Assembly: GCA_009602725.1 (NCBI GenBank)
Contig: WELB01000016.1
Location: 869,790 to 933,789, forward strand
DNA from: Spirogloea muscicola
Lineage: Eukaryota
DNA: 64,000 nucleotides
Direction: 5' to 3'
A model generated the notes under the pieces. It was not told the DNA's origin. It made no database searches and was given only the letters and a program-made list of their open reading frames with translations. Below, piece after piece: positions 5,401 through 64,000 of this stretch. Numbering within the stretch: the first letter of the stretch is position 1; the number at the start of each line of letters is the position of its first letter. The position numbers and the translations under genes are program-made.

Positions 5401-8260
5401 GCGGTTGCAGAACTGCACCCACTGTGGCAGCAAAATACAGCATTTGCGATGTCAATAGGTGGCCCCTAGTGATTAGCCACACTACAGAAGATTTGGCACA
5501 GATTGTTCTGACAATGTCTGACAGCGCTGACAGCCCGAAACCCCCGTCACTGTTTGAAGTAACACTTGAGCAGCTCTTGACCACCAACCTGTGAAATCAG
5601 CTTACTGTGAAAGCAAGAGAGAGGCCTAGACTGGATGCCAATTACCAGGAGGTGGTGGGCCAAATGCCTGGCAGTGACCGCTGCTGCAGTCCTCGCCAAT
5701 GACAATGTCAATTATTGTATTGGGTGGCGGCTTGCCCACAAAGAAATTGTCTTCGTAGTTGAATAGCTGCAAGAGCAGAGCAATTGTCTTAAGCTCAGCA
5801 CGCGACACGGGGAAGAAGCACCAAGGCAAGAAGCAGCAGCCGCACTGGGCATGCTCTTTGGCATACCAGCCGAGGAACATACAGTGATGACTAGCCCCAA
5901 GCAGCTCGCCCCATGTTGCTAGGTCCAAGGAGAGTTAGTGTTGGTGAACCTGCAACTTTGGCTTTCCTGGCAAAAGGGCAAAAAAGTGGGAGATGTACCT
6001 GCAGATTGGGTAAGGAGAACACCCCCGGTGATGTTGCCTGCAAAGCGGTTGCCCGAAATGTCCAGCTGGAGGCCACGCTGCGAGTCCCCGTCAGAGCTCT
6101 TCAGGGCAGAATAATAGCAATGAGGAACACAACAAGTTGGGCAGTCACCTGGACGAGGCTTGTGAGATTGCCAATGTTGAGGGGGAGGCCGCCGTTGAGA
6201 CGGTTGTCAGCGAAGTTGAGTACAAGCGTGGAGCGGAGCTGGGTGATGGCAGTGGGGAGGCCACCAATGAGGCCGTTGTCGAGCAGTACGAGCTCTGACA
6301 ACGTCGGCGCGAGCTGCCCAATGCTGGCGGGAATCAGCCCGCCGAGCGCGTTGTGGGCGAGAACGGCGAGCGAGACCGGGAGGGAGCCCAGATTGTTCGG
6401 AATTGGCTCCTTGAGGGCATTGTTGTTCACTGCGAGCACGTCCAACCGCGTGCTGAATAGCGATGGTGGAAGCACGCCTGTGCAGCTGTTGTGGCGCAGG
6501 TCCAGGAAACGCAGGGCAGGCAGTGCTGTGACCCACAGCGGCAGCGGGCCCGACAGCAGGTTGAGCGAGAAGTCAATCTCGGCGAGCAGACTCAGTACGC
6601 TTAGATCTGGCAGTGCGCCGACGAAGAAGTTCTGGCTTGCATGAATGAAGCCCAGGTCCTGCGCACAATGGTCAACCAGAGGAGCCATAAGACCCACATG
6701 GACATGTTCAGAGATTGATACAGCAGTCAATGTCCTTTTCTTGCATCCCCTCACCCCTCTCCCCTCCAGCCATCTTCTCTTTTTGTCCCTTCTGCCCTTT
6801 CTGCGCTGCCCTCATCCTCCGGTCGTTCTGATGGAGATTGAGGTCTTGCAAGCCGCCAGGTCACACCAACAAGCTCGACCTTGCCAGGCTGTGAAGTCTC
6901 TGCAAGGCACTGTTCATTCACGCAGCAGCAGAGTTGCGGTTTCGCATGCTGAGAGGAGAGCTCCCGGTGCTCACTGGGAGGTTGCGCAGGTACTGTGGAA
7001 CGTAGCCATGAAGGCCAAAGCCGTTGAGGTCCAGGCCAGTGACGACCATCTGAGGCTGCGCCGCCACAGCCCTGACTGCCAGCGTGGCCCCAAATGCTGA
7101 GGCCTCTTCTGGGAGGCTGGCGGCGGCCACAGCCTGGTCCTCACAGTAGACGCCATTCCAACTTGAGGAGGTGGTGGCAATGACTGCCGCTTGGGTGAAG
7201 GAGGCCTGCTCGATGGTGGAGGCGACTGCGGCTTCTTCGGTGGCGCCCTCCCTGTAGGGGGTGGCATCTGCGGCGGCTGCAGCGGCACCACGGTACTGAG
7301 CCGTATCAGTGTCGGCAATCTTCTGATATTTTTCACTGCAGCAGGCCCTATTAGGTGCAGGCCCAACTTCTGCAGACAAAGCCCAAGCTCTCAAAATGCT
7401 CACAGGGCTGCAGCAAGCAGAGCGGGCACCCCTCACCAAGCAGCGGATGTGGTGGTGGCCAGGGTGGTGATTGCAGCTGTGCCGCGGTCTGCCATCGTGC
7501 TTCGTGCTGCCCGGCTTTTTCTTCGACTTATTCTTAGATTTCTTTGTCTTCTGTTTTGTCTTTGACGTCTTCGCCTCCACTCTCAAGTGTCGCCGCTCAC
7601 CGCCATTACCGGCGCCGTGGGCTTGGTCGACGCCAAGCAGCACCTTAAAGAGGCCCTGAGAGGTGGCACTGACGGCGAATGACAGCGTGGCGCTGCAAGC
7701 CGACTGCGAGCAGATGGATGGCGCTGTCGAGGCGCACGCCACTGGGACCAGGCCGGCGTGGGCCTTACCGGCCTCTGGCACCACATGAGCACAGCGGCCC
7801 ATTGCCCTTGCTGCTGCTGCGGCTGCCTGCTGCAGCTCGTCCTGCTGCCACCATCTCAGTGGCCGCACTGCATGCCAACCACCACAGTCTTCAGCAGTGG
7901 GATCGTTCCTTTGCGGCGCAAGCCACAGCCCCAGGAGCGTTGCCAGCCGGCCACCACGTCGCTGTGCATGCAGACGAGGTAGGGCGTCAATGGTGGCACC
8001 AATGGTGCCGACGACGGCGGGGCAAGAGGTCTAGCGACAGCAGGTCGCGGCGGGAATAGGGAGACCTGGCACTCCGCCTCGGCCTGCTCGAAGGAGGCCT
8101 GGCCCAGTGCCGCCAGCAGACACGCCCCAGAGCGCTGCCCCGGCGCGAAACCCGGCAGGCAGGCGCCGTCGCCAGGCGAAGTTGCCGTCCGGGCGCCATC
8201 CGCCATTGCGGCCGACAGAGTCAAGAGCACCGCCGTTGCCGCCGCCGCCGTGACAGCCAT
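2171..8260 (-). pseudogene. Copy A: lectin-LRR-extensin multi-LRR gene, pseudogenised
   Basis: Colinear with copy D: signal peptide at ATG 8260, LRX-type LRR exon ~6150-6660, Pro block 4320-5420, distal LRR modules 2171-4300. Lesions versus D/E: ~355-nt deletion at ~7930 removing most of the lectin domain, 316-nt deletion at ~7168, 5-nt deletion ~6027, 1-nt deletions ~5185 and ~2265, GAG>TAG stop at 4008-4010. Confidence 0.85.
2320..2900 (-). repeat. 291-bp (4-LRR, 97-aa) tandem duplication inside the last LRR module of copy A
   Basis: CTCAAGTCCAGGACGGATAAT starts at 2330 and again at 2621. Peptide GSIPAFVTSRLLLL...LDLSGNFL occurs twice in ORF 2254..2955. Confidence 0.9.
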
Positions 8261-23905: not shown

Positions 23906-23924
23906 TCTTTTTCTTGACCCCCAT

Positions 23925-34308: not shown

Positions 34309-34829
34309 CGTGGGCATGAGGACGCCCGGGTGAGAAAGCGCACACTGAGGTGGTACCGCGCGGCTCTATACACAGCACCTAGACCTAGATCATACGAGCT
34401 AGCACAAAGAGAGTTCCCGTCAGACTCTCTATACTCAACACCCACACAGGGCATGGAATACGCCCGCAGGCTCACCTATGTATAGGCTGTCGGCTGGACC
34501 GACGCTTTACATTTACAACTATGTCATGGTTTGTCCTGACTCTTACCGGATAATTTTCGTGTATTTGAAACAAACGAAGGCCAAATGGTCAAGTACAAAG
34601 GCAAGCACATCTTAAGACCTACATAACCTACGGTAGAGTGACCCGCTCAGTAACCACGGGTCAAAACATAAAGATTGCTAACCGGAGGGGCGTGCCCGCT
34701 ACAATAGCCAGTGTGGGAAGCAGCGGCCAGCTCGAGGGGGGGGAGGGGGGGCGCGCGGAGGCGAATCCAGGGACGATTGGCGTTGACCGCTTGCTACCGT
34801 ACGGAGGCCGTACGGCGGCCGAACGGCCC

Positions 34830-37800
34830 CCCCGGTCCGGCGGTNCTTGCCTGGCGGCGGTGCGCGGCCCGGCGACGTTCGCGCAGGCCGACGCCGAGTG
34901 CCAGGTCCGGCAGCGAGCTCGGAGTCTCGGCTTTGAGGGCTCGGGCTCGACTCCTGCCGGCGCCTGTCGAGGCGGCGGCCCGTCTCGGCGCGGCCGTCTC
35001 AGAGCTGTGGCCACCTTCCGGGGCTCATAGCTTCCGCCGCAATGCTGCCAAGGGCGTCGCCGCGCCGTGGCCGCCAATGCCGCCACTGGCGCAGCCGTCT
35101 CCGGCGTCGCCGCTGACGGTACGCCCTCGTCTGTGCGGCAGCGCCACGGCGGCCGCCTGGCGACGCTCCCGGGCCGGGCGGCGCTCGAGGACGCAGCGGC
35201 GCTGTGCCGGGCACGGTGACGGTGACGGTGGCGGCGCCGGCGGGTGCCTCCTGGGCGCCACTCGAGCTTCAGCTCCAGTTGCGCAGCTCTGCGCACCTCC
35301 ATGGTGTGGCGGCGGCCTGCAGAGCTCGCGCTGTTATCCCAAGCTTGTATTGCTGAGGACCCACAATGGCTCCTGCTTGAGCCACAGGGCCGCCATGGTT
35401 GTGGGCCGAGCGCTGCGCCGCCTTCTCGGCGGACCTGTGGCTGGCTGCGCCGCCGCCGTCGCCCGCCTTCGCAGCAGCCGGTGAGCTCTCTCTGTCCCCG
35501 ACCTGTGCCCCACCGGCCACGAGCTGGCCACTCTGTAGCTGGCCTCCACCGAGTGCTGCTGCCCTGGGCCGAAGTAGTAGTAAAAGTAAGAAGAAGCTGC
35601 AGAAATTGCAGCATGATTTCTGTGGTGCAACGGCACCAATAACATTTGTGTGCGACGGCATACGATTATGTAGTTTTGTGAGGGTGTTTGCCGAAGCCGC
35701 CGCTGCTACCGCGAAGGCCAGAATGGTGGTGGCTGACACGCAGCGGTGTCGCGGAGGTGGTGGCGGCAGGATGAGCTGCGGCTGGCAGCCGCCTCCATGG
35801 CAGCAGCAGCAAGCAGCTGCACTCGTGTGGTGCCACGGCCGGCGCGGGCCGCCCCGGCCTATCTCCAGCGGCATGCGACGCGGCGACGCTTTTCATCTGC
35901 TTGCAGGCAGCCTGCAGCGCTGCAGTGCCGACGTCACTCGTCGCCGCTTCTCAGGGGCTTCCTACAGAGCTGCCCGCCCGTGGCCACGCCCTCCGGGCCA
36001 GCCGTGCGAGTAAGCGATGGCAAATGGTGGAGTTCAAGAAGAAGAAGAAGAAAAAGTCAAGAAGAAGAAGAAGTCGAGCAGCTCAAAGCACGACGGAAGC
36101 CCGCAGCACAGCTGCAACCACCACCCCGGTCGTCACCACGTCCGCTGTTCGGTGAGGGGGCCCAACCTTGCTGCCAACTCCATGCCATGAAGTCACGAGC
36201 CCCCGGCCTGGCCAATGTGACCAGCTGCGGTGACTGAAATTGGACAAGATGCCAGGCACTGACATGGCTTGCCGCTTGGCGTGCTACTCCCAGCCGCTGC
36301 GGCCGCCACCGCCATCAAGGAGGCCGCCGTCACCCAAGTTGCGGATGCCGCCACCACCAAGGAGGTCACCGCCACCCAAGCGACAGCCGCCGCCCTCACC
36401 TCCCCGCCCGTCGCCTCCGCCCAAGCCACGCTCGCCGCCGAAACCACGCTCACCTCCGCCACCCAAGACACGCAGCCCCCCGCCGAGGGGGCGACGGCAA
36501 TCACCGCCGCCGAGGAGGCCGTCCCCCCCTCCACCAAGATGGACCTTCCCTCCTCCCCTGAAGAAAGCCTCCCCATCCCCTCCATGTATCAGCAAGCAGG
36601 CCCAGGCAGCGGGCTCGCTACTGGCCTTCAATGCCGCCGTGCGCGACCCCCGCGGCTACCTTGCCAACTGGGTTGGCGCCACACCATGCGCCTGCAGCTG
36701 GACTGGCGTCTTCTGTAAGGATCAGATGAGTGGCCGCTACAGGTGTCCCAGTGGAGGCCTTAGCATTTGGGGCCCACACCGGTGGTCAGAGCTGCGGTGG
36801 TGCGGACGCAGCTGGTCGTCACTGGCCTGGACCTCAACGGCTTTGGCCTGCGCGGCTACGTCCCGCGCTTCCTCCGCAATATCATGGTGTGAAATACTGA
36901 GAGCTACTTTCCGAGCAAGTGTAGTTCCCGGTCTGCAGAAGCCCCCAAAACCAATATCATTCGAGTGCTTGGTAGCCCGTCCAGCTATGATGTCTGCCAA
37001 AGTGGCCTAAGCTATCAGCACGATACAGCATTTGGAAAGGACAGACAGGAAGAGTGGAGGGAGGTTGAGGAGCAGGGAGAATTAGAGGCACCAAGCTAGG
37101 GGGGATGGGAGCAGAGGAGAGTAACAGAGGCTGGAGGGAGGGGGGAGAGAGATAGCTCGGCAGAAGAGGGAGGGAGAAAGACGAGGGAGAGAGGTTGGAG
37201 TGAGGCGTTCAAGCAGGGGTTGAGGTCGGAGGACAGGAAAACGGCAAAGTGAGTAGAGGGAGGGACGGTCCTGGTGATGTCAACCCGTGGTGCATGTTCA
37301 TGTGACCCTTACGCTGTCCATGCTGGCCGCCATGCGCAGGACTTCATCCATGCAAGCCAGAACTTCTTCATCGGCACGCTCCCAGACCTGAGCGCGCTCA
37401 CCTTGCTCACAGAGATCGACTTTTCGCTGAACATCCTCTCGGGTCCGCTGCCGCTGTGGGTGACCACGCTGCCGGCCCTGCGTTTTTTGGACCTACGATT
37501 CAACAGCTTCACTGGCACGCTGCCTCCGTCACTCTTTCGCACAAGCCAAGAAGTGCTCGCCGTCAATGACAACATCATGACGCAGCGGATCCCAGACAGC
37601 CTGTGACTGCTTCCTGTCTTGCTCACGGTCCTGGCCCGCAACATGCTCAGTGGCCCCATTTCTGCCAGCATCAGGCAACTTGCTCTGACGCTGTCGGAGC
37701 TCGTGCTGCTCAACAACGGCCTCGTTGGCGGTCTCCCCCTCCATTGGGCAGCTTCGTTTCACTGTGGTACTCAACATCGCTGGTAACCGCTTCGTCGGGA

Positions 37801-39310
37801 GTCTCCCCCCCAGCATCTCGAACCTCACAAGCCTTGTCCAGGTCAGACCAGTGGCTGACTGCCTGCAACCCATCTAGTAGTCACCCCCACCATGCACAGG
37901 TCTGATAGTAGTTCTGACAATACGTGTGGCGTTGGTTGTGTCTCGCCAGCTGGATATCTCGGACAACCGTTTTGCTGGCAACATCACCGCCTCAGCAGTA
38001 TTCTTCCTCCCCAATCTCCAGGTGCTGCTCTTGAATAGTGCAGTAAACCCAAGAAGTAGGAAGCCATCAGATGTGTGCATCTCACACAATTGCATACTGG
38101 CCTGGCCTGCTTCCGCTTAACTAGGGTCAACAAGTTGGGGAGCCTGACCTTTCTGTCATTGTTGAAGAGATGGGCCTGGTCAGTCGAGGTCAAGTGTAAT
38201 TGCTGCCTCCTTACAAGTGAAACTCGCGTGTCACGTAGTCAGCCCATATACTCTAAAAATCTTGCAGCTCTTCAACTACGCAGACAACTTCTTCGTCGGC
38301 AAGCCGCCGCCAAATACGACAGTGGATGTCATCATTGGCGAGTATTGCAGCAGTGGGCGCTTCCAGTCATTTGCCCCGCCGCCTCCTGGTGAGCAGTCTC
38401 GATCACAGGTCACAGAAGGTATGTTGGTGTGCAAGTGGCATAGGTGGCATTCTTGTGCTTGAATATTTCTGGGCGGGATCAGAGAACTTGATAGAGTTTG
38501 CTGAGCTGTTGCGTAAACCGCATGCGCCAGAGAATCAGGATGTATGTCGCACGGCAAGGAGTACCAGCTACAGCTCACTTTGCTGCCGTTTGGTGCCGCA
38601 GCAGGTGCGCTTCCGCCGCCACCGCCACCGTCGCCACCGCCTTCGCTACTGCCGTCACCGCGCAGTCAGCTCCAATACCATCGCCGCCTCCCACGGAATT
38701 GTTGCCGCCGCCAGCCCCAGCTTCACTGTCATCACCTCCTCCTGAATCGCCGCCGCTCACACTGCTGCCGCCAGGCCTACGTCCACCGCAGCCGCCGCCT
38801 ACGGCGGTGCCCACGCTCCTGCCGCCTCCCCCTTCGCCTCATTTGCCGGTCAGCGTCCCCTTGTCTCCACCGTCACTACCAGTCGCGAGCCCTCCGCCAC
38901 TGCTGCCGCCACCTCCATCGCCTCCACCCGGGGCTCCCGCCTTCCCGCCGCCGTCGCCACTGCCGCCGCCGCCGCCGCCGCCGCCAATTGTGGTGCCCAC
39001 GTTGCCACCACCTCCAGTGTCACTGCCACCTCCACCGCCTCCCCTGCTGCCGCCCTTACCACCGCCACCGCCGCCACCGCTGCCTGTTCTGCCACCACAA
39101 GTGCAGCCACCACTGCCACCGCCACCGCCATCGCCACCGCCTCTGCCGCCTTCACCACCTCCGCCACCACCGCTGCCCACTTACTTATAACTGCCACCGC
39201 CGCCACCACCAGCACCATCGCCGCCGCTTCCGTCACCACCGCCGCCCCCATTGTCCCCGCCGTCTCCTCCACCACCACCGTCGCCCCCACCATCCCCCCC
39301 GCCAGCGTCT
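34830..39310 (+). pseudogene. Copy B: divergent inverted lectin-LRR-extensin paralog, pseudogene
   Basis: Homologous exons: CLAAVRGPATFAQADAECQ, WLWAERCAAFSADLW, DFIHASQNFFIGTLPDLS, LFNYADNFFVGKPPP, Pro block 38600-39300. No signal peptide. Frameshifts at ~35835 and ~37740; stops at ~37605 and 39188. Confidence 0.82.
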
Positions 39311-42300
39311 GGAGGTGGCGGTGAAGGTGGCGGTGAGGGCGGCGGTGGTGAGGGCGGAGGCGGTGGTGAGGGCGGCGGTGGTGAGGGCGGCGGTGGTGAG
39401 GGCGGCGGTGGTGAGGGCGGCGGTGGTGAGGGTGGCGGTGGTGAGGGCGGCGGCGGTGGTGAGGGCGGCGGCGGTGAGGGCGGCGGTGGTGAGGGCGGCG
39501 GTGGTGAGGGCGGCGGTGGTGAGGGCGGCGGCGGTGGTGGCAGCGGCGGTGGTGGTGGCGGCGGTGGCGGTGATGGCGGCTGCGGTGGAGGCAGCGACGG
39601 TGGTGGTGGCGGCGGCGGCGGCAACGGAGGGGAGGGCGGCGGTGGTGAGGGCGGCGGCGGTGGTGGTGGCGGCGGTGGTGGTGGCGGCGGCGGCGGTGAT
39701 GGCGGCGGCGGTGGTGGCGGCGGAGGCGGCAACGGAGTGGAAGGAGGTGGTGGTGACGGTGGAGGGGGTGGCACCAAGAATGGTGGTGGCAACGGCGGCA
39801 GAGGAGGAGGCTGTGGTGGTGGCGGTGATGGTGGGGGAGGCGTTGGGGGAGGAAGCGCCACTGTGGGCGACGGCGGCGGAGGCGGCGATTGGGCCAGCGG
39901 GGGCGGGAATGGTGGTGAAAATGACGGAGGTGGCGGCGGCGGGAGCTCAGGCGGCGGCGGTGGTGGCGCCAATGATGGCAGCAAAGGCGGGCTGAGCTGC
40001 AACGGCGACGGCGACGGCGGCGGCGGCAGGAGAGATGGGGGTGGGGATAGCAGTGGAACTGGGGGTGGCGGTTGCAGAAGTGCACCCACTGTGGCAGCAA
40101 AGGACAGCATGTGAGATGTAAACAGGTTGCTCTAGTGGTCAGCCACGCTACGGCAGATTTGGCACAGTTTGATAATAACAACATATAAGAGCGTGACAGG
40201 CTTATCTCGAACCCCTTCAATCATCCGAAGTAACACTCTAGCAGCTCTTGACCGCCAATGTGTCATACTGTGGAAGCCATAGAGAGGCCTAGACTGGATG
40301 ACAATTACCAGGAGGTGGTGGTGGTGGTGGTGGTGGTGGTGGTGGTGGCGGTGGCGGCAGCAACGGAGGGGAAGACGGCGGAGGTGATGGTGGAGGGGTT
40401 GGCACCAAAGATTGAGGTGGCAGTGGTGGCTGCGGGGGAGACTGTTGTGGTGGTAGTGATTGTGGCGGTGATGGTGGGGGAGGCGTTGGAGGAGGAAGCA
40501 CGACTGGGGGCGACGGCGGCGGAGGTAACGATTGGGTTGGCGGGGGCGGGAATGGTGGCGAGAATGACAACGGTGGCGGCTGCGACAGAAGAGGTGGGGC
40601 TGTTGGAGGCGAAGGCGGAGAGGCCGGTGATGCTCCAATAAGAGGCGACGGAGGTGGAGGTAGGGCTGGTAGTGATGGCAGTGGCAGCAAAAGACAGCAT
40701 GTGAGAAGTCAACAGGTGGTCCGAGTGGTCAGCCACTCTACTGAAGATTTGGCACAGATTGCTTAACAACATCTATCAGCGCTTACAGCCTTATTTCATA
40801 TTTCAAAGCCCTGGAGAAAATTTCGAACAGCTCTTGAACACCAATGTGTACCTACTGTGAAAGCCATAGAGAGGCCTAGATGACAATTACCAGGAGGTGG
40901 TGGTGGCGGCGGCAGTGGTGGTGGTGGTGGTGGCGGCAACGGAGGGAAAGGTGGCGGTGGTGACGGAGGGGGTGGCACCAAGAATGGTGGTGGCAATGGT
41001 AGCTGCAGCGGAGGCTGTTGTGGTGGCGGCGATTGTGGCCCTGATGGTGGGGGAGGCGTTGGAGGAGGAAGCACCACTGGGGGCGACGGCGGCGGAGGCG
41101 ACAGTTGGGCTAGCGGGAGCGGGAATGGTGGCGTAAACGATGGTGGTGGCGGTGGCAGGGGAGGCGCTTGGGGAGGAGACGATGACGGAGGGGCCAGAAG
41201 TGGCGGTGAAGTTGATTGCGGCAGCGGGGATGACTGGGGCGGCGAACGGGGTGGAGAAAGCGACTCCGGAGGCAGCAATTCTGGTGCGGGTGGAGGCGGT
41301 GGGAAAGGTAGCACTGGGGGCGACGGCTGGGTCAGTGGTGGAGGGGATGGCGATGGACGTGGTGTCGGCGGGAGCTCAGGCGACGGCGGGAATGATGCCA
41401 ATGGCGGCAGCAAAGGCGGGCTGAGCTCCGGTGATGGCGACGGCGGCGGCGACAGTAGAGATGGGGCTGTCGGAGGCAAAGGCGGAGAGACAGGAGATCC
41501 TCTACTAAGGGGCGATGGTGGTGGAGGTAGGGCTGGTAGCGGTGGCAGTGGCGGCGGACTAGACGTAGGCGACAGTGGGGATGATGTTGTTGGCGTCAAC
41601 AATGGGGATGATGTTGTTGGCGAGGGTAATAGCAATGGCGCTCGTGGAGAGAACGATGGAGGTGGAGGTGGCAATAGCAGCGGCACTGGGGGTGGCGGTT
41701 GCAGTAGTCCACTCACTGTGGCAGCAAAAGACAGCATGTGAGATGTGGTCGGCCACTCCACTAAAAACTTGGAACAGACTATATTTACAACAACTTACAG
41801 AGCTGACAACCCTATTTGAAACCCCTTCAATCATCCGAAGTAACACTTCGAGCAGCTCTTGACCATCAACCTGTACCTACTGTGAAAGCAATAGAGAGGC
41901 CTAGACTGGATGCCAATTTACCAGGAGGTGGTGGGCCAAACGCCTTGCAGTGACCGCTGCTGCAATCCTGGCCAATGATAATGTCAATGGTTGAATTGGG
42001 CGGCGGCTTGCCCACAAAAAAGTTGTCCTTATAGTTGAATAGCTGCAAGATAGAAGATATTTCCTTAAGCTCAGCACGCGACATGAGGAAGGAGCACCAA
42101 GTCAGCAGCCGCACTTGGCATGATCTTTGGCCATACCAACCAAGGAACATAAATGACCAGCCCTAAGCAGCTCGCCTCATGTTGCTAGGTCTGGGGAGAG
42201 ATAGTGTTGGTCCATCTGCAAACTTGGAATTCTTGGCAGAAGGCAACATGAGTGGTAGCTGTACCTGCAGATTGGGCAAGAAGAACACCTCCGAGGTGCT

Positions 42301-45178
42301 GATGTTACCTGTAAAGCGGTTGCTCGAAATGTCCAGCTGCAGGCCACGCTGCGAGTCCCATCAGAGCTGTTCAGGGCAAGAATGATAGCAACAAGTGTCG
42401 CAACAAGTCGGCCATTAACCTGGACGAGGCTTGTGAGATTGCCAATGTTGAGGGGGAGGCCGCCGTTGAGGCGGTTGTCGGCAAAGTTGAGTACAAGCGT
42501 GGAGCGGAGCTGGGTGATGGCAGCGGGGAGGCCGCCGATGAGGCCGTTATCAAGCAGCACAAGCTCCGACAACGTCGGCGCGAGCTGCCCAATGCTGGCG
42601 GGAATCAGCCCGCCGAGCGCGTTGTGGGCGAGAACGGCGAGCGAGACCGGGAGGGACCCCAGATTGTTCGGGATTGGCTCCTTGAGGGCATTGTTGTTCA
42701 CCGCGAGCACGTCCAGCCTCGTGCTGAATAGCGACGGTGGAAGCACGCCTGTGAAGCTATTGTGGCGCAGGTCCAGGAAACGCAGGGCAGGCAGTGCCGT
42801 GACCCACAGCGGCAGCGGGCCCGACAGGAGGTTGAGCGAGAAGTCAATCTCAGCAAGCAGACTCAGTCCGCTTAGATCTGGCAGTGCGCCGACGAAGAAG
42901 TTCTGGCTTGCATGAATGAAGCCCAGGTCCTGCGCACATTGGTCAACCAGAGGAGCCATATGAGCCACATGGACATGTCCGGAGATGGACACAGCTGACA
43001 ATGTCCTTGTCTTGCATGCCCCCACCACTCTCCCCTCCAGCCGTCTTCAGTGTCTGTCCCTTCCTGCCCTGCCCTTATCCTCCGGTCGTTCTGGTAGCGA
43101 TTGAGGTCTTGCAAGCCGCCAAGTCACACCAACAAGCTCGAGCTTGCAGGCTGTCTCAAGGCAAGGCACTGCTCATCCACGCTGCAGCAGAGTTGTGGTT
43201 ATGCATGCTGAGAGGAGAGCTCCTGGTGCTCACCGGGAGGTTGCGCAGGAACTGCGGAACGTAGCCATGAAGGCCAAAGCCGTTGAGGTCCAGGCCAGTG
43301 ACGACCACCTGAGGCTGCACCGCCACAGCTCTGACTGCCAGTCTGGCCCCAAATGCTGAAGCCTCTGCCGGGAGGCTGGCGGCGGCCACAGCCTGGTCCT
43401 CACAGAAGACGCCTTTCCAATTTGAGGCGCATGGTGTGGTGCCGATCCAGTTGGTGAGGTGGTCGTGTGGGTCGCGCATAGCGGCCTTGAACGCCAGTAG
43501 CAACACCCCCACCTGGGCCTGCTTACTGATAGAGGGAGGAGGGGGGACGGCCGTTCTAGGAGGAGGTGTGGAGGCCTTCACTGGCAGAGGACGGAAAGGC
43601 TTCTTCGGTGATGGCGGTGGCGCCGTCGGCCTCCAAGGGGGCCTGTGCGTCTTGGGCCGAGGCGGTTGTAGCTTGAGCAATGGAGGCGAGTGTCGCTTTG
43701 GAGGAGGCGAGCGGCGAGGAGGTGGTGGCATTGACAAACGCTTGGGTGAAAGAGGCCTGCTTGATGGTGGAGGCGACTGCGGCTTCTTCGCCGACGCCAT
43801 ACCTGTAGGGGGTGGCATCTGCGGCGGCTGCAGCGGCACCACAGTATGGAGCAGTATCAGTGTCGGCAATCTTCTGATATTCATTCCTGCAGCAGGCCCT
43901 ATCGTGTGCAGGCCCAGACTCTACAGACAAAGCTCAAGTTCCCACAAGCTCCCGGGGCTGCAACAAGCAGAGCGGGCACCCCTCACCAGGCAGCGGACGT
44001 GGTGGTGGCCAGGGTGGTGATTGCAGCTGTGCCGCGGTCTTCCATCGTGCTTCGTGGCGCTCGGCTTTTTCTTCGACTTCTTCTTGGTTTTCTTGGTCTT
44101 TTTTTTTGTCTTTGATGTCTTTGACTCCACTCTCAAGTGCCGCCGCTCACCACCACCACCGGTTCCATGGGCGTGGCCAATGCCAAGCGGCACCTTAAAT
44201 AGGCCCTGAGAGGAGGCACTGACGGCCAATGACAGCGTGGCGCTGCAAGCCGACTGCGAGCAGATGAATGGCGCTGTCGAGGCACACGCCACTGGGACCA
44301 GGCCGGCGTGGGCCTTACCGGCCTCTGGCACCACATGAGCACAGCGGCCTACTGCCTTTGCTGCTGCTGCGGCTGCCTGCTGCAGCTCGTCCTGCCGCCA
44401 CCATCTCAATGGCCGCACTGCATGCCAAACACCACAGATTTCAGCTGTGGGATCGTTCCCCTGCGGCGCAAGCCAAAGCTCGGGAGCGAGTGGGCGCCAG
44501 GTTGGGTGCAGAGGAGCTCACCAGTCGCCGAGGGAGAGGCTGCCGACGGCGTCGTGGTGGCCAGCCACAGGTCCGTGGAGAAGGCCGCGCAGGGCTCCGT
44601 CCATTTCCATGGCGTCCCTCCTGCCGAAGGGAAACCGCGGAGGCGTGCGTCTTGACGCAAGCGGCAGGTACCGGATCGGACGACACTGCAGCACGAGCTG
44701 ACGGGAGTTGCATACTGGTATGCAGGGAGCTGCGCACCTGGCTCTGGCACACGCGTGGCACCCACGAAGCACCCGCCACTCCCACCATCGCCAGTGCCGC
44801 TGGGTAGTGCACGGCACAGCTCAACGGCGTCCTCGAGCGCCAAGCGCCCCAGGAGCGTTGCCAGCCGGCCGCCACGTCGCTGTGCATGCAGACGAGGCAG
44901 GGCGTCAACGGTGGCACCAATGGTGGCGACGACGGCAGGGCAAGAGCTCTAGCGACAGCAGGTCGCGGCGGGAATAGGGAGACCTGGCACTCCGCCTCGG
45001 CCTGGCCGAATGACGCCGGGCCGGGCGCCGCCAGCAGGCACGCCCCGGAGCGGGGCCCCGGCGCGAAGCCCGGCAGGCAGGCGCCATCCCCAGGCGAAGC
45101 CGCCTTCCGGGCGCCGTCCGCCATTGCGGCCGACAGAATCAAGAGCACAGCAGCCGCCGCGGCCACCGTGACCGCCAT
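39181..45178 (-). CDS. Copy C: secreted C-type-lectin/LRR/extensin protein lacking the distal LRR modules
   Basis: ATG 45178 with signal peptide; lectin, Lys-rich, LRRNT and LRX-type LRR exons are open with GT-AG introns; three Pro-rich exon copies. The first stop (39181) is reached only after reading into the antisense strand of copy B. Confidence 0.6.
39320..39530 (-). repeat. 15-bp repeat encoding (SPPPP)n extensin pentapeptides
   Basis: (GGCGGTGGTGAGGGC)n on the plus strand, roughly 13 units. Confidence 0.9.
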
Positions 45179-55335: not shown

Positions 55336-58300
55336 CTACGCCGGGCCGGGAGGTGGGGTGTTGAAATAACTGAAGCATTCACTGTACGACCTCTGGTCTG
55401 CTGGCATGTTGTCCACCGTCACATTGATGCAGTTGGAATAGATGTAGGCGACGCTCCTCGTTCTGGCTCCGGATGGGAAGCTGGTAAAGTAGTTGTTTTC
55501 CAGGCCAAGGAAAGTCACGTTGGGCAGAGATGCAAAGCCCAGAGGCACATCACCTGTCAGCTCGTTCGCAGCTAGGTCCACAGTCACCAGGCTGATGAGC
55601 TGCCCATACGAGGGGGGAATGACGCCCGTCAGGACGTTGCCATCCACTGAGATATACTGCAGGAGTGGCAGGGTTGCCCAACCGTCGGGCAGTGATCCTG
55701 ACAGTTGGTTGTTGGAGAGGTCCAAGACTGTCAAGAGTGTCATATTAGTGATCGAGGCTGGCATCGCACCCTCAAGCAGATTGTTGCTCAGAGTGAGGGT
55801 GGTGAGGAGAGATAGGCTGCCAATGTCAGCTGGGATGGCCCCGCCAAACTCGTTGAAGTACAGGTTGAGCCCTCCGAGGGAGGTGAGTGATGTCAAGGAC
55901 GATGGGAGGGTAGGGAATACGCCCGTTGGAGGCGATCCTACTGAGATGCTGAGAAACGTGACACGGTCGTGCTTGTCACACAGGACACCAGCCCAACTGC
56001 AGGTGCCAGTGAGACAGCCATCACAAGGTGCGGTGGAATTCCAGCTATCCAGGAGAGTTGGGTTGCCCAGCGTGGCCTTGAGGTCGAGCAGCGGCGTAGC
56101 CGAGCTTGCCGGCAGTGTGGCGCGTGCAAAGAATTGTATGCACTCTGCGTATGACCGCTGGTTAGACCGATCTGCAAATGCAGTCAAATCTCCCAGGCAA
56201 TTGTCGTAGATCAAAGGGTACGTCGTGGATATGAGGAGGGGACCAGTCAAGTAGTTACTGTCGAGATTTATGTAAATGGGGAAGTCCGGGGCTAAGAGGG
56301 CGTCTGGAATTTGGCCCGTGAATTCGTTGTCATTCATATAGACATAGGTGTAATTGCCAAAGGCGGCAACGAATGCGGGCACCGGCCCACTGAGGACGTT
56401 GCTGGCAACACTGAGCGATGACAAGCTGATGCAGCCCGTCAGCGTGGCAGGAAGGGCCCCGGTAAGCAGGTTGTCACTCACGTCCAGGTTGCTGAGCAAG
56501 TCGAGGTTGCCAACGTCTGCCGGGATAGGCCCTGTCAGCTGGTTGCTGTTGAGATAGAGGCTGGTGAGGAGGAGCAGCGTGGATGTGACAAATGCTGGAA
56601 TGGGGCCTTGAAGGCTGCTGTCCTCCAGATAGAGCTGCTGCAGGGTCGTGAAATTCGCCAACGTCATTGGAAATGGGCGACCACCGGCATTGTATAGAGA
56701 GGACAGATCAAGAGTTGTGACGTGCCCAAAGCTGTCACAACCAAGCCCTGTGAGGATGCAGCCATAGGGGCAGCCAGCGCAGGGGTCAACGGCGTTGCTT
56801 GAATACCAATTCAATTGAAATGGATTACCAAGCTCAACCTTGAGTTCGAGGAGGCTGACTGTGGATGTCGGCGGGAGCGCTGCGAGCTCATAGAAGGCAA
56901 AGCAATCTTGCCAATCGCGTTGTCCGGGAATAGACACGCCCTTGCTCACCCCGAAGCAGTTGTATGTGTCAGGGCTGAATTGAGTGGCTGCACCCGTAAA
57001 GTAATTTGAGTAGATATTCAGCTCTCGTAGCCCCGGCTGGAGGACAACAAGGTCGCCAGAGAAAAGGTTCTCGCTGACGTCGAGCTCAATCAGCGATTGG
57101 AGACCGAGGACGACTTGGATGTCGCCAGATAACCAGTTACGGGATAAGTCGAGGTTGCTAAGGAGCGGCAGTGAGCCCAATGTTGTAGGAATGGGCCCCT
57201 GCAGCGGGCCCTCGTATGCCAATGACAGGGTTGTCAGCTCCTTCAAATTCCCCAGAGACGCTGGGATCTCGCCTGTGAAATCGTTCCATCCCAGGTCCCT
57301 AGCCACAGGCAAAGCTTGGCAGGTATCAGCAACTCTGAAGCGGCTTCTAATCACAGACAACTGACTTGACATGGCAACCATTTGCACCAATTAAGTATAT
57401 GCCATGGCCCGTCGACCAATGTCATCCCTTCATGACTCGACTATGGTGAGAGGAAGTACCGGCCCAAGCCATACCTCGTTGGCTTTTGACTGAATGCCTT
57501 AACTGAATCTATGCTGAATCAACATGCAACAATGCTGCCCACAGCCCTAAGCCTGGGACCCTCCTCACGAACCTGAACACTCAATCCTATGATCAAGCCC
57601 TGAGTGCTGAGGTGCGAGGAAGGATCGAAAGATCGGCAATTCCTCAGCCGTATGCCCGCCCGTTGACTAAGGTGAGAGCCTCACAAGATTTGCAGATTGG
57701 TGAGATTGCCGAGCTCCGAAGGGATGGGGCCAAACAAGCCGATGAAGGGCAGCGTTAGCTGCTGAAGGCTGGCGAGGCTGCCAAGGCTGGCCGGCATGTT
57801 CCCAAGGTAACGATAACCAGTATTCTCAAGGTTGATCCTGATCACAGAGCCTTGGTCATCGCAAGTCACTCCAGACCATGCACATGATGCCTCCGTGCCA
57901 GGAATGCAGCCGTCGCAGGGGTTGGACGTATTCCAGGTGGCGACTTGCTCTGACGTACCGATGAGCACCGCCTTGAGCTCCAGAAGGATTGCCAGTTGGT
58001 CGAGCAAAGGGCCGGGTGTACTCGGCGGTGGGGGAGGCGCTGGCGGCGGTAAGACTGGTGGGGATGGCGGCGGCGGTGGTGGTGGTGGCGGGGGCTGTGG
58101 TGGCGGCGGCAGCAGCAACGGAGGGGACGGCGGCGGTGGTGACGTTGGAGGGGGTGGCACCATGAATGGCGGTGGCAATGGTGGCTGCGGAGGAGGCTCT
58201 TGTGGTGGCGGTGATAGGGGGGGAGGCGTTGGAGGAGCAAGCATCGCTGGGGGCGACGGCGGCGGAGGCGACGACTGGGCTAGCGGGGGTGGGAACGGTG

Positions 58301-61300
58301 GCGAGATTGACGATGGTGGCGGTGGCGGCAGGGGAGGAGATGGGGGAGGAGGTGGTGACCGAGGGGCCAAAAGCGAGGTTGGAACTGGGGGCGGTGTTGG
58401 GGATAAATGGGGCGGCGGAGAGGGCGGAGAAAGCGACTCTGCAGGCGGCACTTTTGGTGCCGGTGGAGACGGTGGGAAAGGTATCACTGGGGGCGACGGC
58501 TGGTTCAGTGGTGGCGGGGATAGTGGGGAGAGTGGCGGCGGATGTAGCGTCGGCGGGAGCTCAGGTGGCGGTAGTGGCGGTGCCAATGGCGGCAGCAATG
58601 GCGGGCTGAGCTTCAGCGACGGCGACGGCGGCGGCGACAGTTGAGATGGGGCTGTTGGAGGCAAAGGTGGAGAGGCCGGTGATGCTCCAGTAAGAGGCGG
58701 CGGTGGTGGAGGTAGGGCTGGTAGCGATGGCAGTGGCGGCGGACTGGACGGGGGCGGCAACAGTGGGGATGATGTTGTTGGCGAGGGTGGTATCGATGGC
58801 ACTTGTGGAGAGAGCAACGGAGGTGGAGGTGGGGATAGCAGCGGAACTGGGGTTGGCGGTTGCAGAACTGCACCCACTGTGGCAGCAAAATACGCATTTG
58901 CGATGTCAACAGGTGGGCCCTAGTGATTAGCCACACTACTGAAGATATGGCACAGATTGTTCTGACAATATCTGACAGCGCTGACAGCCCGTACCCCCGT
59001 CACTATTTGAAGTAACACTTGAGCAGCTCTTGACCACCAACCTGTGAAGTCAGCTTACTGTGAAAGCAAGAGAGAGGCCTAGACTGGATGCCAATTACCA
59101 GGAGGTGGTGGGCCAAATGCCTGGCAGTGACCGCTGCTGCAATCCTCGCCAATGACAATGTCGATTGTTGTATTGGGTGGCGGCTTGCCCACAAAGAAAT
59201 TGTCTTCATAGCTGAATAGCTGCAAGAGCAGAGCAATTGCCTTGAGCACGCGACACGAGGAAGAAGCACCAAGGCAAGAAGCAGCAGCCGCACTGGGCAT
59301 GCTCTTTGGCATACCAGCCGAGGAACATACACTGATGACTAGCCCCAAGCAGCTCGCCCCATGTTGCTAGGTCCAAGGAGAGTTAGTGTTGGTCAACCTG
59401 CAACTTTGTCTTTCTTGGCAGAAGGGCACATAAGTGGGAGATGTACCTGCAGATTGGGTAAGAAGAACACCCCCGAGGTGGTGATGTTGCCTGCGAAGCG
59501 GTTGCCCGCAATGTCCAGCTGGAGGCCACGCTGCGAGTCCCCGTCAGCTCTGTTCAGGGCAGAATAACAGCAACGAGGAAAACAACAAGTTGGCCAGTCA
59601 CCTGGACGAGGCTTGTGAGATTGCCGATGTTGAGGGGGAGGCCGCCGTTGAGACGGTTGTCAGCGAAGTTGAGTACAAGCGTGGAGCGGAGCTGGGTGAT
59701 GGTTTCGGGGAGGCCACCAATGAGGCCGTTGTCGAGCAGCACAAGCTCCGACAACGTTGACGCGAGCTGCCCAATGCTGGCGGGAATCAGCCCGCCGAGC
59801 GCGTTGTGGGCGAGAACGGCGAGGGAGACGGGGAGGGAGCCCAGATTCATCGGAATTGGCTCCTTGAGGGCATTGTTGTTCACTGCAAGCACGTCCAACC
59901 GCGTGCTGAATAGCGATGGTGGAAGCACACCTGTGAAGCTGTTGTGGCGCAGGTCCAGGAAACGCAGGGCAGGCAGTGCTGTGACCCACAGCGGCAGCGG
60001 GCCCGACAGGAGGTTGAGCGAGAAGTCAATCTCAGCGAGCAGACTCAGTCCGCTTAGATCTGGCAGTGCGCCGACGAAGAAGTTCTGGCTTGCATGAATG
60101 AAGCCCAGGTCCTGCTCACAATGGTCGACCAGAGGAGCCATAAGACCCACATGGACATGTTCAGAGATTGATACAGCTGTCAATGTCCTTTTCTTGCATG
60201 CCCTCACCCCTCTCCCCTCCATCCATCTTCACTTTTTGTCCCTTCTGCCCTTTCTGCGCTGCCCTCATCCTCCGGTCGTTCTGATGGAGGTCTTGCAAGC
60301 CGCCAGGTCACACCAACAAGCTCGACCTTGCCAGGCTGTGAAGTCTCTGCAAGGCACTGCTCATTCACGCAGCAGCAGAGTTGCGGTTTTGCATGCTGAG
60401 AGGAGAGCTCCCGGTGCTCACCGGGAGGTTGCGCAGGAACTGCGGAACGTAGCCATGAAGGCCAAAGCCGTTGAGGTCCAGGCCAGTGACGACCATCTGA
60501 GGCTGTGCCGCCACAGCCCTGACTGCCAGTGTGGCCCCAAATGCTGAGGCCTCTGCTGGGAGGCTGGCGGCGGCCACAGCCTGGTCCTCACAGTAGACGC
60601 CATTCCAACTTGAGGCGCATGGTGTGGTGCCAATCCAGTTGGTGAGGTAGCCGTGGGGGTCGCGCATAGCGGCTTTGAAGGCCAGTAGCGACACCCCCGC
60701 CTGGGCCTGCTTACTCACAGAGGGAGGAGGGGGGTTGGCCTTTCTAGGAGGGGGTGTGGAGGGCTTCAGTGGCAGAGGACGGAAAGGCTTCTTCGGTGAT
60801 GGCGGTGGCGCCGGCGCCCTCGGTGGGGACCTGTGCGTCTTGGGCGGAGGCGAGTGTGGCTTGAGCAATGGAGGCGGTTGTAGCTTGAGCCATGGAGGCG
60901 AGTGTCGTTTGGGAGGAGGCGAGCGGCGAGGAGGTGGTGGCAATGACTGCCGCTTGGGTGAAGGAGGCCTGCTTGATGGTGGAGGCGCCTGCGGCTTCTT
61001 CGGTGGCGCCCTCCCTGTAGGGGGTGGCATCTGCGGCGGCTGCAGCGGCACCACGGGATTGAGCCGTATCAGTGTCGGCAATCTTCTGATATTATTTCCT
61101 GCAGCAGGCCCTATTGTGTGCAGGCCCAACTTCTGCAGACAAAGCCCAAGCTCTCAAAATGCTCGCAGGGCTGCAGCAAGCAGAGCGGGCACCCCTCACC
61201 AAGCAGCGGATGTGGTGGTGGCCAGGGTGGTGATTGCAGCTGTGCCGCGGTCTGCCATCGTGCTTCGTGCCGCCCAGCTTTTTCTTCGACTTCTTCTTAG

Positions 61301-62378
61301 TTTTCTTTGTCTTCTTCTTTGTCTTTGTCGTCTTCGCCTCCACTCTCAAGTGCCGCCGCTCACCGCCACTACTGGCGCCGTGGGCTTGGCCGACGCCAAG
61401 CAGCACCTTCAAGAGGCCCTGAGAGGTGGCACTGACGGCGAATGACAGCGTGGCGCTGCAAGCCGACTGCGAGCAGATGGATGGCGCTGTCGAGGCGCAC
61501 GCCACTGGGACCAGGCCGGCGTGGGCCTTACCGGCCTCTGGCACCACATGAGCACAACGTCCCATTGCCTTTGCTGCTGCTGCGGCTGCCTGCTGCAGCT
61601 CGTCCTGCTGCCACCATCTCAGTGGCCGCACTGCATGCCAGCCACCACAGTTTTCAGCAGTGGGATCGTTCCTTTGCGGCGCAAGCCACAGCGCGGGAGC
61701 GAGTGGGCGCCAGGTTGGGTGCAGTGGAGCTCACCAGCTGCCGAGGGAGAGGCTGCCGACGGCGTCGTAGTTGCCAGCCACAGGTCCGTGGAGAAGGCCG
61801 CGCAGGGCTCCGTCCACCTCCATGGCGGGCCTGCGCAGGGGGCGCCCGTCTTGACGAAAGCGGTACATAACCACTTGGGCCTTTCTGCAGCACGAGCTGA
61901 TGGGAGTTGCTCTGGTATACCGAGAGCTGCGCACCTGGCTCTGGCCCACGGGTGGCGCCCACAAGGCAGCCGCTGCTGCTCCCACCATCGCCAGCGCCGC
62001 CGGGTAACGCTCGACACAGCTCCGCCGCGTCCGCGAGCGCCGAGCGCCCCAGGAGCGTCGCCAGCCGGCCACCACGTCGCTGTGCATGCAGACGAGGCTG
62101 GGCGTCAATGGTGGCACCAATGGTGGCGACGACGGCGAGGCAGGAGCTCGAGCGACAGCAGGTCGCGGCGGGAATAGGGAGACCTGGCACTCCGCCTCGG
62201 CCTGGCCGAATGACGCCGGGCCGGGCGCCGCCAGCAGGCACGCCCCGGAGCGGGGCCCCGGCGCGAAGCCCGGCAGGCAGGCGCCGCCCCCAGGCGAAGC
62301 CGCGTCCCGGGCGCCGTCCGCCATTGCGGCCGACAGAGTCAAGAGCACAGCAGCCGCCGCCGCCGCCGTGACCGCCAT
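55336..62378 (-). CDS. Copy D: apparently intact ~1,800-aa secreted protein (signal peptide, C-type lectin-like domain, Lys/Pro-rich linker, LRX-type LRR, extensin-like block, three further LRRNT-LRR-Cys-cap modules)
   Basis: About 10 exons with GT-AG introns: 62378-62184, 62079-~61935, ~61830-61734, ~61629-61200, ~61130-60422, ~60110-59603, ~59519-59448, ~59219-59099, 58877-~57685, ~57298-55336. No stop seen in the exons; no C-terminal TM helix. Confidence 0.82.
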
Positions 62379-63706: not shown

Positions 63707-64000
63707 TTATAGCCGGCTAGGAGATGGAGCGACTACATAGCCAGAGCAATCGCTATACGGTCTTTGATCTGCTGGCATGTTATCCACTGTCACATTGATA
63801 TAATTGAAGCTGATGTCAACGATTACCGCTGTTGCTACTGCAGGGAAGCTGGTGAGGAAGTTGTCACTCAATTCCAGGATGTATAATGAGGTCAAGTAGG
63901 CAATGACAGCCGGGACAGGCCCGCTCAGCTGGTTGTCATCGAGATAAAGATAATTTAAGCTGACGCAGCCCACAAAAGAGTCTGGGAGGGCCCCACTCAG
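63707..64000 (-). CDS. Copy E: 3' end of another paralog continuing beyond the window
   Basis: Open frame ...CVSLNYLYLDDNQLSG...DQRPYSDCSGYVVAPSPSRL*, homologous to the end of copy A. Confidence 0.8.
   Translation of the reverse strand: MSGALPDSFVGCVSLNYLYLDDNQLSGPVPAVIAYLTSLYILELSDNFLTSFPAVATAVIVDISFNYINVTVDNMPADQRPYSDCSGYVVAPSPSRL

What the first reader, a model, noticed from the sequence alone, without database searches (positions are those of the whole stretch)
55336..62378. Secreted lectin-LRX-extensin-multi-LRR mega-protein with an architecture outside the canonical LRX family
Seen: after splicing, the N-terminus reads CLPGF..SGACLL..SFGQAEAECQRRGGRLATL..GCLVGATR..WRWTEP..CAHV..VACASTAPSIC, the Cys/Trp pattern of a C-type lectin-like domain. 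It is followed by a Lys-rich and SPPPK linker, an LRX/PEX-type LRR, a ~285-aa Pro block and three more LRRNT-LRR modules, with no TM helix. Known: land-plant LRX proteins have one LRR module and a terminal extensin domain, bind RALF peptides and work with CrRLK1L kinases; C-type lectin domains are rare in plants. Inference: a wall-anchored multivalent sensor joining a lectin-fold domain, a conserved LRX module and extra binding modules on an extensin stalk. The lectin domain is split across four short exons and is invisible in the ORF track.
Basis: partly seen in the sequence, partly recalled or inferred. Interest (0 to 1): 0.85.

Follow-up and report, generated by a model that had tools for sequence, protein, structure and literature searches.

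The report
Algal lectin-LRX protein with variable LRRs
A predicted ten-exon gene from one of the algae closest to land plants likely encodes a secreted wall protein that joins a degenerate lectin-like head and an LRX-type core (a pairing already reported in moss) to three extra leucine-rich-repeat modules whose predicted binding faces differ sharply between gene copies.

Summary
[quoted passage not shown] Neighbouring copies match Spirogloea muscicola gene models; nine loci of the family were seen, and one on another scaffold has the same full layout. No RNA evidence was available.

The CTLD call rests on several weak but concordant tests. Pfam misses it, and the Ca/sugar motifs are absent. 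The core is closest to LRX2 but lacks the dimer cysteine and the disulfide ladder.

The lectin+LRX+Tyr-free-extensin pairing is not new: four of five moss LRX-like proteins carry a C-terminal CTLD (PMC4738400). New here are the N-terminal position, a +40 polybasic linker, and extra LRR modules whose concave-face residues are only 23 of 70 identical between paralogs, against 42 of 45 in the LRX core. Best reading: a wall-held scaffold with one conserved and several diversified binding surfaces. Verdict: new variant of a known kind.

The parts
62319..62378 (-). ATG and predicted signal peptide (about aa 1-20), exon 1
   Evidence: Most hydrophobic 19-mer of the protein, 1.98; same start in paralog models P0002-P0006. 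No SignalP run.
61473..62279 (-). C-type-lectin-like domain, aa 34-198, over exons 1-4 (introns 1-3 are each 104 nt)
   Evidence: Paralog domain (87% identical): Atlas 28 of 30 hits Lectin_C; 3 of 5 non-family phmmer hits are Lectin_C proteins; only PDB hit is REG4, E 0.055. dN/dS 0.23 vs copy C.
61347..61358 (-). RRHL, the only R[RK]xL in the protein; candidate site-1-protease site
   Evidence: 2.8% (RRxL) to 12% (R[RK]xL) of shuffles of aa 201-290 contain such a motif. RRxL as S1P site: PMC13082318. Untested.
61203..61334 (-). Lys tract (aa 245-263) and His-rich two-Cys loop (aa 269-288)
   Evidence: Sequence; loop kept in 5 of 7 database models examined and in diverged copy B.
60716..61039 (-). 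Basic Pro-rich linker (aa 290-397; 44% Pro, 21 K+R, two SPPPK)
   Evidence: net +40 over aa 237-400.
59100..60715 (-). LRX-type LRR core with N-cap and short two-Cys C-cap (aa 398-729; exons 5-8)
   Evidence: Best single-domain PDB match LRX2, 181.8 bits, vs at most 80.9 for the four receptor kinases displayed (paralog P0003); dN/dS 0.20-0.25 vs copies A, B, C.
58020..58876 (-). Tyr-free Pro block (aa 730-1015), exon 9
   Evidence: 53% Pro, 9 SP3+, 4 SP4+, 0 Tyr, 2 Lys.
56881..58019 (-). LRR module 2 (aa 1016-1266); its N-cap is in the same exon and frame as the Pro block
   Evidence: LRRNT_2 21.9 bits vs cut-off 20.7; single ORF 57681-58919.
56119..56880 (-). LRR module 3 (aa 1267-1520)
   Evidence: 30-32% identical to modules 2 and 4, same cap pattern.
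55336..56118 (-). LRR module 4 (aa 1521-1780) and stop
   Evidence: LRRNT_2 24.7 bits; 35% identical to module 2.
2118..8260 (-). Copy A, broken paralog (355-nt and 316-nt deletions through the CTLD and the LRX N-cap, plus 5-nt and 1-nt deletions)
   Evidence: matches database model P0001.
34700..39300 (+). Copy B, diverged broken paralog (frameshifts, intron-2 donor TT); ends in a Pro block tail-to-tail with copy C
   Evidence: database model P0008.
39178..45178 (-). Copy C, open frame SP-CTLD-basic-LRX-terminal Pro (about 1,297 aa), no extra LRR modules
   Evidence: matches P0002. Splicing inferred.
63707..64000 (-). 3' end of copy E, the upstream tandem paralog, with its own stop 1,328 nt before this gene's ATG
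   Evidence: first half of P0124.

Best explanation
This is one predicted gene of a recently amplified Spirogloea family, likely encoding a secreted, probably monomeric LRX-type wall protein that would be held in the pectic wall by charge and would display one conserved and three diversified LRR binding surfaces. Shown: the open ten-exon frame, the domain order, LRX-type sequence of module 1, absence of TM, GPI tail and Tyr in the Pro blocks, purifying selection on the CTLD and the core, and face-biased divergence of modules 2-4. Inferred steps: (1) the signal peptide sends it to the wall; (2) the Ser-Pro blocks are hydroxylated and arabinosylated into extended rods, as in chimeric extensins; (3) the +40 Lys/Arg segment binds de-esterified homogalacturonan or acidic mucilage, a job done in land plants by the cationic RALF peptide bound to LRX; (4) the invariant concave face of the core binds a conserved endogenous partner that is probably not RALF; (5) the stalk holds out modules 2-4, whose variable faces bind ligands that differ from copy to copy, most likely foreign (microbial) or self/non-self molecules; (6) the CTLD is a Ca-independent binding domain. 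With no membrane part, any signal would need a partner receptor.
For: Gene unity: all 9 introns GT-AG, open frame; intron 8 is only 222 nt and exon 9 has no in-frame Met before aa 941 and no signal-like start; the Pro block and module-2 cap share one ORF; independent models P0004 (66% identical over 1,803 aa, another scaffold), P0001 and both halves of P0124 make the same joins. CTLD; a profile of the three foreign CTLD proteins scores this gene's domain 42.0 bits vs best shuffle 8.5 of 1,000 (these proteins were found by the paralog, so partly circular); VIA top 50 rows all CTLD-fold, best Z 8.5, rmsd 2.7 over 86 residues (model built with three CTLD rows, pLDDT 43). LRX core. Selection: dN/dS CTLD 0.23 and core 0.21 vs copy C. 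Face residues in modules 2-4: 23 of 70 identical vs 233 of 349 elsewhere against P0004, p 2e-7; modules 2-3 21 of 41 vs 141 of 194 against copy E, p 0.009. Core face: 42 of 45 in both comparisons, and no face excess even against copy B at dS 0.80 (pN 0.123 face vs 0.140 rest). Literature: RALF-pectin binding is charge-dependent and RALF is reported absent in charophytes (PMC13516882); an LRX1-like protein was found in the Penium secretome (PMC6027541).
Against: No transcript supports the splicing. Pfam finds no Lectin_C at E<=5 on P0001-P0005 or E<=0.1 on P0124, P0006, P0008. A family-only profile found 0 PDB hits at E<=10. Single-sequence AlphaFold2 gave pLDDT 36, and sequence similarity to CTLDs covers only aa 34-121; the second half rests on cysteine spacing. 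Face codons of modules 2-3 against copy A give pN 0.36 vs pS 0.45 (38 codons): elevated but not above 1, so relaxed constraint fits too, and copy A is a pseudogene. Two of the five copies in the window are broken. Repeats were picked by a regular expression that missed some, and the pairwise comparisons are not independent. RALF absence was not checked in this genome. Pectin binding, hydroxylation and ligands are untested.
Confidence: 0.55

Rival explanations
1. It is a structural or adhesive wall/mucilage glycoprotein. Modules 2-4 are spacer or self-assembly units whose exposed residues drift because they are unconstrained, not because they track ligands.
For: Face pN/pS is near but under 1; long chimeric extensins are common in green algae (PMC4769139); copies differ in module number (three here and in P0004, two in A and E, none in C).
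Against: The LRX core face stays invariant at equal or greater divergence, and the structural LRR positions of modules 2-4 are kept (48 of 56 vs P0004), so the change is confined to the surface that binds ligands in solved plant LRR proteins (established knowledge).
Confidence: 0.25
2. It works as a canonical LRX: a dimer that binds a RALF-like peptide and reports wall state to a CrRLK1L kinase, with the other domains as accessories.
For: Four of six named RALF-contact positions are kept or conservatively changed (LRX2 F90 to Y, H131, E248, Q296). CrRLK1L kinases occur in charophytes.
Against: F202 is A and E295 is V; the dimer cysteine C138 is V; A114, where a bulky substitution helps break the LRX8 dimer, is H; three LRX2 cysteines in the later repeats are missing. 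RALF is reported absent from charophytes.
Confidence: 0.1
3. Exons 1-8 and exons 9-10 are two transcription units, or the long form is rarely made; the 'mega-protein' is a prediction artefact.
For: Models P0002, P0003 and P0006 stop at or soon after exon 8; retention of intron 8 gives a stop after 6 codons; the annotation itself wrongly merges copies E and D.
Against: Intron 8 is 222 nt with no AATAAA/ATTAAA/TGTAA, exon 9 has no usable start, donor and acceptor phases match, and both sites are kept in copies A, B and C.
Confidence: 0.1

Closest known systems
Physcomitrella (Physcomitrium patens) LRX-like extensin chimeras with a C-type lectin domain (MacAlister et al., PMC4738400; e.g. Pp1s35_242, Pp1s96_30)
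   Same: LRX-type LRR domain, Tyr-free Ser-Pro region and a C-type lectin domain in one protein (passages and supplement rows).
   Different: In moss the lectin is C-terminal, passes Pfam PF00059, the proteins are 642-688 aa and share the LRX1 Cys-rich region. Here the CTLD is N-terminal and below Pfam detection, the Cys-rich tail is reduced, and a polybasic linker and three further LRR modules are added. Whether the two lectin domains are orthologous was not tested; no moss protein appeared at E<=0.001.
Arabidopsis LRX2 / LRX8 (PDB 6qxp, 6qwn, 6tme; Moussu et al., PMC7132299)
   Same: Colinear LRR core, best single-domain match; followed by a Ser-Pro block; several RALF-pocket residues kept.
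   Different: No dimer cysteine or disulfide ladder, a 22-residue insertion in the N-cap, about 400 residues in front of the core, an internal rather than terminal Pro block, no Tyr.
Long and other chimeric extensins of green algae (Liu et al., PMC4769139)
   Same: Large secreted protein with SP3-5 blocks joined to globular domains.
   Different: 1,780 aa, under the usual >2,000 aa; that survey found long chimeras only in three chlorophytes and no LRX in the four algae examined, none a zygnematophyte.
Plant C-type lectin receptor kinase (C-LecRLK; At1g52310, cucumber CsTs)
   Same: A rare plant C-type-lectin-like ectodomain. A similar cysteine layout is recalled from memory, not tested.
   Different: No TM or kinase here. 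C-Lec RLKs are reported absent from Zygnematophyceae but present in Klebsormidium (PMC10868138).
LRR receptor-like proteins / PGIP-type secreted LRRs
   Same: Plant-type LRRs with variable concave faces (recalled general knowledge); modules 2-4 match LRR-RK ectodomains at 32-41%.
   Different: Three short, separately capped modules in series on a Pro stalk, with no membrane anchor.

Membership tests
LRX (leucine-rich repeat extensin) | N-terminal signal peptide | tested here: met
   Hydropathy 1.98 at aa 1-19; SignalP not available.
LRX (leucine-rich repeat extensin) | LRR core of the LRX type | tested here: met
   One colinear domain of 181.8 bits against LRX2; only LRX2 and LRX8 chains give a single stretch passing E 1e-40, 3 of 30 rows (paralog P0003).
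LRX (leucine-rich repeat extensin) | Placement inside the LRX clade on a tree | not testable with these tools
   No LRX sequences could be fetched: the homolog list (120 of 217 shown) was filled by long receptor kinases; the Atlas did not answer.
LRX (leucine-rich repeat extensin) | LRR directly after the signal peptide and extensin domain at the C-terminus | tested here: not met
   CTLD and basic linker precede the core; 765 aa of LRR modules follow the Pro block. Copy C does end in Pro.
LRX (leucine-rich repeat extensin) | Dimer cysteine (C138 of LRX2) and Cys-rich tail with disulfide ladder | tested here: not met
   C138 aligns to V; three later LRX2 cysteines align to non-Cys; only two Cys in the C-cap.
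LRX (leucine-rich repeat extensin) | RALF-binding pocket residues | tested here: inconclusive
   H131, E248, Q296 kept, F90 to Y; F202 to A, E295 to V. Binding not testable.
Extensin domain (chimeric EXT) | Two or more Ser-Pro3-5 motifs in a Pro-rich region | tested here: met
   9 SP3+ in the Pro block, 2 in the linker; criterion from PMC4769139.
Extensin domain (chimeric EXT) | [quoted passage not shown] | tested here: not met
   0 Tyr in both Pro regions, as in moss LRXs.
[quoted passage not shown] | Sequence or language-model similarity to Lectin_C members | tested here: met
   Atlas 28 of 30 hits, top 0.94 but 157 shared features, under the 170 typical of same-family hits; phmmer E 1.7e-5 to 9e-4 to three PF00059 proteins. 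Pfam itself gives no hit.
[quoted passage not shown] | Complete CTLD fold | tested here: inconclusive
   Model pLDDT 43; VIA Z 8.5, rmsd 2.7, 86 aligned; Foldseek best E 0.045; alignment contained three CTLD rows.
Ca-dependent C-type lectin (sugar-binding CRD) | EPN or QPD and WND motifs of Ca site 2 (motif names recalled) | tested here: not met
   None present in aa 34-200.
Receptor-like protein / receptor kinase | TM helix, GPI signal or kinase domain | tested here: not met
   Maximum internal hydropathy 1.53, polar C-terminus, no kinase Pfam hit.

The most novel reading that the evidence does not exclude
This family preserves a pre-RALF form of the LRX wall module in the sister lineage of land plants: the polybasic, Cys-looped segment behind an RRxL site is a built-in, possibly protease-released counterpart of the RALF peptide that ties the LRX core to pectin; the LRX-CTLD pairing shared with moss is ancestral; and the stalk displays a diversifying array of secreted LRR modules that acts as a wall-bound recognition repertoire without a membrane anchor.
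Probability: 0.15. Interest if true: 0.8.

Novelty: new variant of a known kind. Interest (0 to 1): 0.5.

Why it matters
LRX proteins are thought to work with RALF peptides, yet RALF is reported absent from charophyte algae, so what an algal LRX core binds is an open question. This gene gives a direct test: a core under purifying selection, with part of the RALF pocket kept, the dimer cysteine lost and a cationic segment in the same chain. Together with the moss proteins it raises the question whether LRX plus C-type lectin is ancestral to Zygnematophyceae and land plants or arose twice. The contrast between an invariant face and hypervariable faces within one protein points to ligand diversification in an anchor-less wall protein. 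The lectin-like domain is missed by Pfam in every family model scanned, so Pfam-based surveys of domain combinations in these algae would overlook it.

Tried and rejected
No genome is held for the window, so copy number and RALF absence could not be checked. No RNA holder was listed; this says nothing on expression. First splice choices (acceptors 61884 and 61132; alternative donor 61364 with acceptor 61098) were dropped in favour of 61830 and 61039; 61830 matches P0004 and P0124, 61039 matches P0002-P0004 and P0006. Word-based homolog searches with the CTLD found only Spirogloea family members (5 and 6 proteins). The full-library phmmer gave 10 hits: 5 family, 3 Lectin_C proteins, 2 repeat proteins that I treat as artefacts (P0125, P0128). 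The LRR-core search was swamped by long kinases, so it says nothing on LRX relatives in other algae. A metagenome scan with exon 6 found no relative among 361 pattern matches. Single-sequence fold was unusable. The idea that the C-caps of modules 2-4 are LRX-type got weak support (LRX2 was the only one of 60 listed rows aligned through the cap) but the cap alone did not retrieve LRX among 32 rows; left open. A complex prediction of the LRX core with the basic/His-Cys segment gave 'no answer', score 0.01; not evidence either way. The Atlas search for the LRX core did not complete. Earlier findings of this scan: none returned. The 3,113-aa annotation that fuses copies E and D was rejected: copy E has its own stop and copy D its own ATG and signal peptide 1,328 nt downstream.
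Full report
Observation. The gene lies on the minus strand from ATG 62378 to stop 55336. Ten exons with nine GT-AG introns give one open frame of 1,780 aa. The order is: signal peptide; Cys/Trp domain (aa 34-198, exons 1-4); RRHL, Lys tract and His-rich two-Cys loop; basic Pro linker; LRR core (aa 398-729); Pro block (aa 730-1015); three capped LRR modules (aa 1016-1780). There is no TM helix or GPI-like tail. The splicing is inferred from DNA. It agrees with an independent annotation, P0124, which is identical to my model at aa 65-289, 400-665, 666-730 and 1009-1780 but fuses this gene to the upstream copy.

Source and family. Two neighbouring copies match database models P0001 and P0002 at 99-100% over most aligned segments; these are named as Spirogloea muscicola models. 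The window holds five copies: A (broken by deletions), B (inverted, frameshifted), C (open, ends in Pro, about 1,297 aa), D (this finding) and the 3' end of E. Four more loci lie on other scaffolds (P0003-P0006), nine in all. P0004 has the same full layout and is 66% identical over aa 1-1803 of my first model. A and E carry two extra LRR modules, D and P0004 three.

One gene or two. The weak point is intron 8. It is 222 nt, has no common polyadenylation hexamer, and exon 9 has no in-frame Met before aa 941 and no signal-like start. The Pro block runs into the cap of module 2 within one ORF. P0001, P0004 and both halves of P0124 make the same join. Three models (P0002, P0003, P0006) stop near exon 8, so a short form is possible. 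I put the long form at about 0.85.

The lectin-like domain. Tests used the paralog P0004 domain (87% identical to this gene's), because the spliced domain is not a contiguous stretch of the window. For: 28 of 30 Atlas hits are Lectin_C, top score 0.94 with 157 shared features; of 10 hits in 1.84 billion proteins, 5 are family, 3 are PF00059 proteins (E 1.7e-5 to 9e-4) and 2 are repeat proteins; the only PDB sequence hit is REG4, E 0.055; a profile of the three foreign proteins scores this gene's domain at 42.0 bits against a best of 8.5 in 1,000 shuffles; an 8-row model (pLDDT 43) returns only CTLD folds in the top 50 VIA rows, best Z 8.5, rmsd 2.7 over 86 residues. The last two are partly circular. 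Against: no Pfam hit, no PDB hit for a family-only profile, no usable single-sequence model, no Foldseek hit at E<=0.001, and alignable similarity only over aa 34-121. EPN/QPD and WND are absent. I read it as a degenerate CTLD (about 0.9) that is unlikely to bind sugar through calcium. dN/dS of 0.23 against copy C (14.5 non-synonymous, 22.5 synonymous differences) shows it has been kept as coding sequence.

The LRX core. With paralog P0003, LRX2 gives one colinear domain of 181.8 bits, while the four receptor kinases displayed reach at most 80.9 bits per domain. Using the residue numbers of Moussu et al. (PMC7132299; passages and part 2 of Results read), chain position + 28 fits all eight named positions inside the alignment. 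RALF-contact H131, E248 and Q296 are kept, F90 is Y in this gene, F202 is A, E295 is V. The dimer cysteine C138 is V and A114 is H. Three LRX2 cysteines in the later repeats are absent and the C-cap has only two Cys. The module is LRX-type in sequence but fails two defining features, so I do not file the protein as a canonical LRX. No tree could be built.

Pro and basic regions. The Pro block has 9 SP3+ motifs and no Tyr, so peroxidase cross-linking through Tyr (PMC8012813, passages) is not available. Residues 237-400 carry a net charge of +40, while all four LRR modules are acidic, -10 to -17. In land plants, RALF binds de-esterified pectin by charge and LRX-RALF-pectin complexes pattern the wall; RALF is reported absent from charophytes (PMC13516882, passages and section 5.2). 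A cationic segment in the same chain as an LRX core could do that job; this is inference. The segment begins at the only R[RK]xL of the protein, the motif cut by site-1 protease in RALF23 (PMC13082318, passages), but 3-12% of shuffles give such a motif.

Modules 2-4. They are 30-35% identical to each other and share an N-cap and a two-Cys C-cap. Between paralogs their concave-face positions are far more variable than the rest: 23 of 70 vs 233 of 349 identical against P0004 (p 2e-7), and 21 of 41 vs 141 of 194 for modules 2-3 against copy E (p 0.009). The LRX core shows no such bias: 42 of 45 face positions are identical in both comparisons, and against copy B (dS 0.80) face pN is 0.123 vs 0.140 elsewhere. 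At codon level against copy A, face pN is 0.36 with pS 0.45, and the rest 0.15 with 0.34. This shows released or diversifying constraint on the faces; it does not prove positive selection. 24 repeats were picked by pattern and some were missed.

Mechanism. Most likely a secreted protein held in the wall by its basic segment and glycosylated Pro rods, with a conserved core that binds a fixed endogenous partner and distal modules that bind variable ligands (0.55). Rivals: a structural or adhesive chimera with drifting surfaces (0.25), a canonical RALF-binding LRX (0.1), two transcription units (0.1).

Prior art. MacAlister et al. (PMC4738400; passages and supplement rows) report that four of five Physcomitrella LRX-like proteins have a C-terminal C-type lectin domain and Tyr-free extensin-like regions; two rows of their Table S2 list PF00560, PF08263 and PF00059 together. 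Their Figure S10 is an image and was seen only as a legend. Liu et al. (PMC4769139, passages) found no LRX in four algae, none a zygnematophyte, and many chimeric extensins in chlorophytes. An LRX1-like protein was detected in the Penium secretome (PMC6027541, passages). C-Lec receptor kinases are reported absent from Zygnematophyceae (PMC10868138, passages). Passages of PMC6362431, PMC10762512, PMC11096116, PMC11489597 and PMC12069490 did not mention this architecture. Ten full-text searches turned up no description of an N-terminal CTLD on an LRX or of extra LRR modules behind the Pro block; most listed papers were seen only as titles and abstract starts. The Spirogloea genome paper and its supplements, and the SI of Moussu et al., were not read and could bear on this.

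Verdict. Real, and a new variant of a known kind. The lectin-LRX-extensin pairing is in print for moss; the order, the polybasic linker, the variable LRR array and its presence in a zygnematophyte appear new within the searches made. So far the full layout is seen in one species only, and the searches for relatives in other algae were not sensitive enough to show absence. Interest 0.5.

Noticed in passing
window 63707-64000 and 55336-62378; P0124: The database annotation fuses copy E and this gene into one 3,113-aa model, drops this gene's first exon and reads parts of the Pro segments in the wrong frame.
   Followed up: yes
window 62080-62183, 61831-61934, 61631-61734: Introns 1, 2 and 3 are each exactly 104 nt but are unrelated in sequence.
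   Followed up: partly
window about 39300: Copies B (+) and C (-) meet tail-to-tail inside their Pro blocks, which looks like an inversion junction or an assembly join; both lack the extra LRR modules.
   Followed up: partly
window 39178-41715: Copy C has its Pro exon and the preceding intron repeated three times; the middle repeat has lost its acceptor AG.
   Followed up: partly
window 52360-52539: A 183-nt piece 75% identical to this gene's upstream region and first codons, with the ATG changed; a likely remnant of another copy.
   Followed up: partly
window 51378-52058 (+): ORF with a glycosyltransferase family 92 domain, E 7.6e-11, next to this wall-protein cluster.
   Followed up: partly
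window 15384-29655: LTR-retrotransposon debris between copies A and B: Ty3-like gag, integrase, copia gag, protease and RT pieces.
   Followed up: partly
P0127: An unnamed 152-aa Lectin_C protein shares the extra cysteine pair around the second helix and strand seen in this domain.
   Followed up: no
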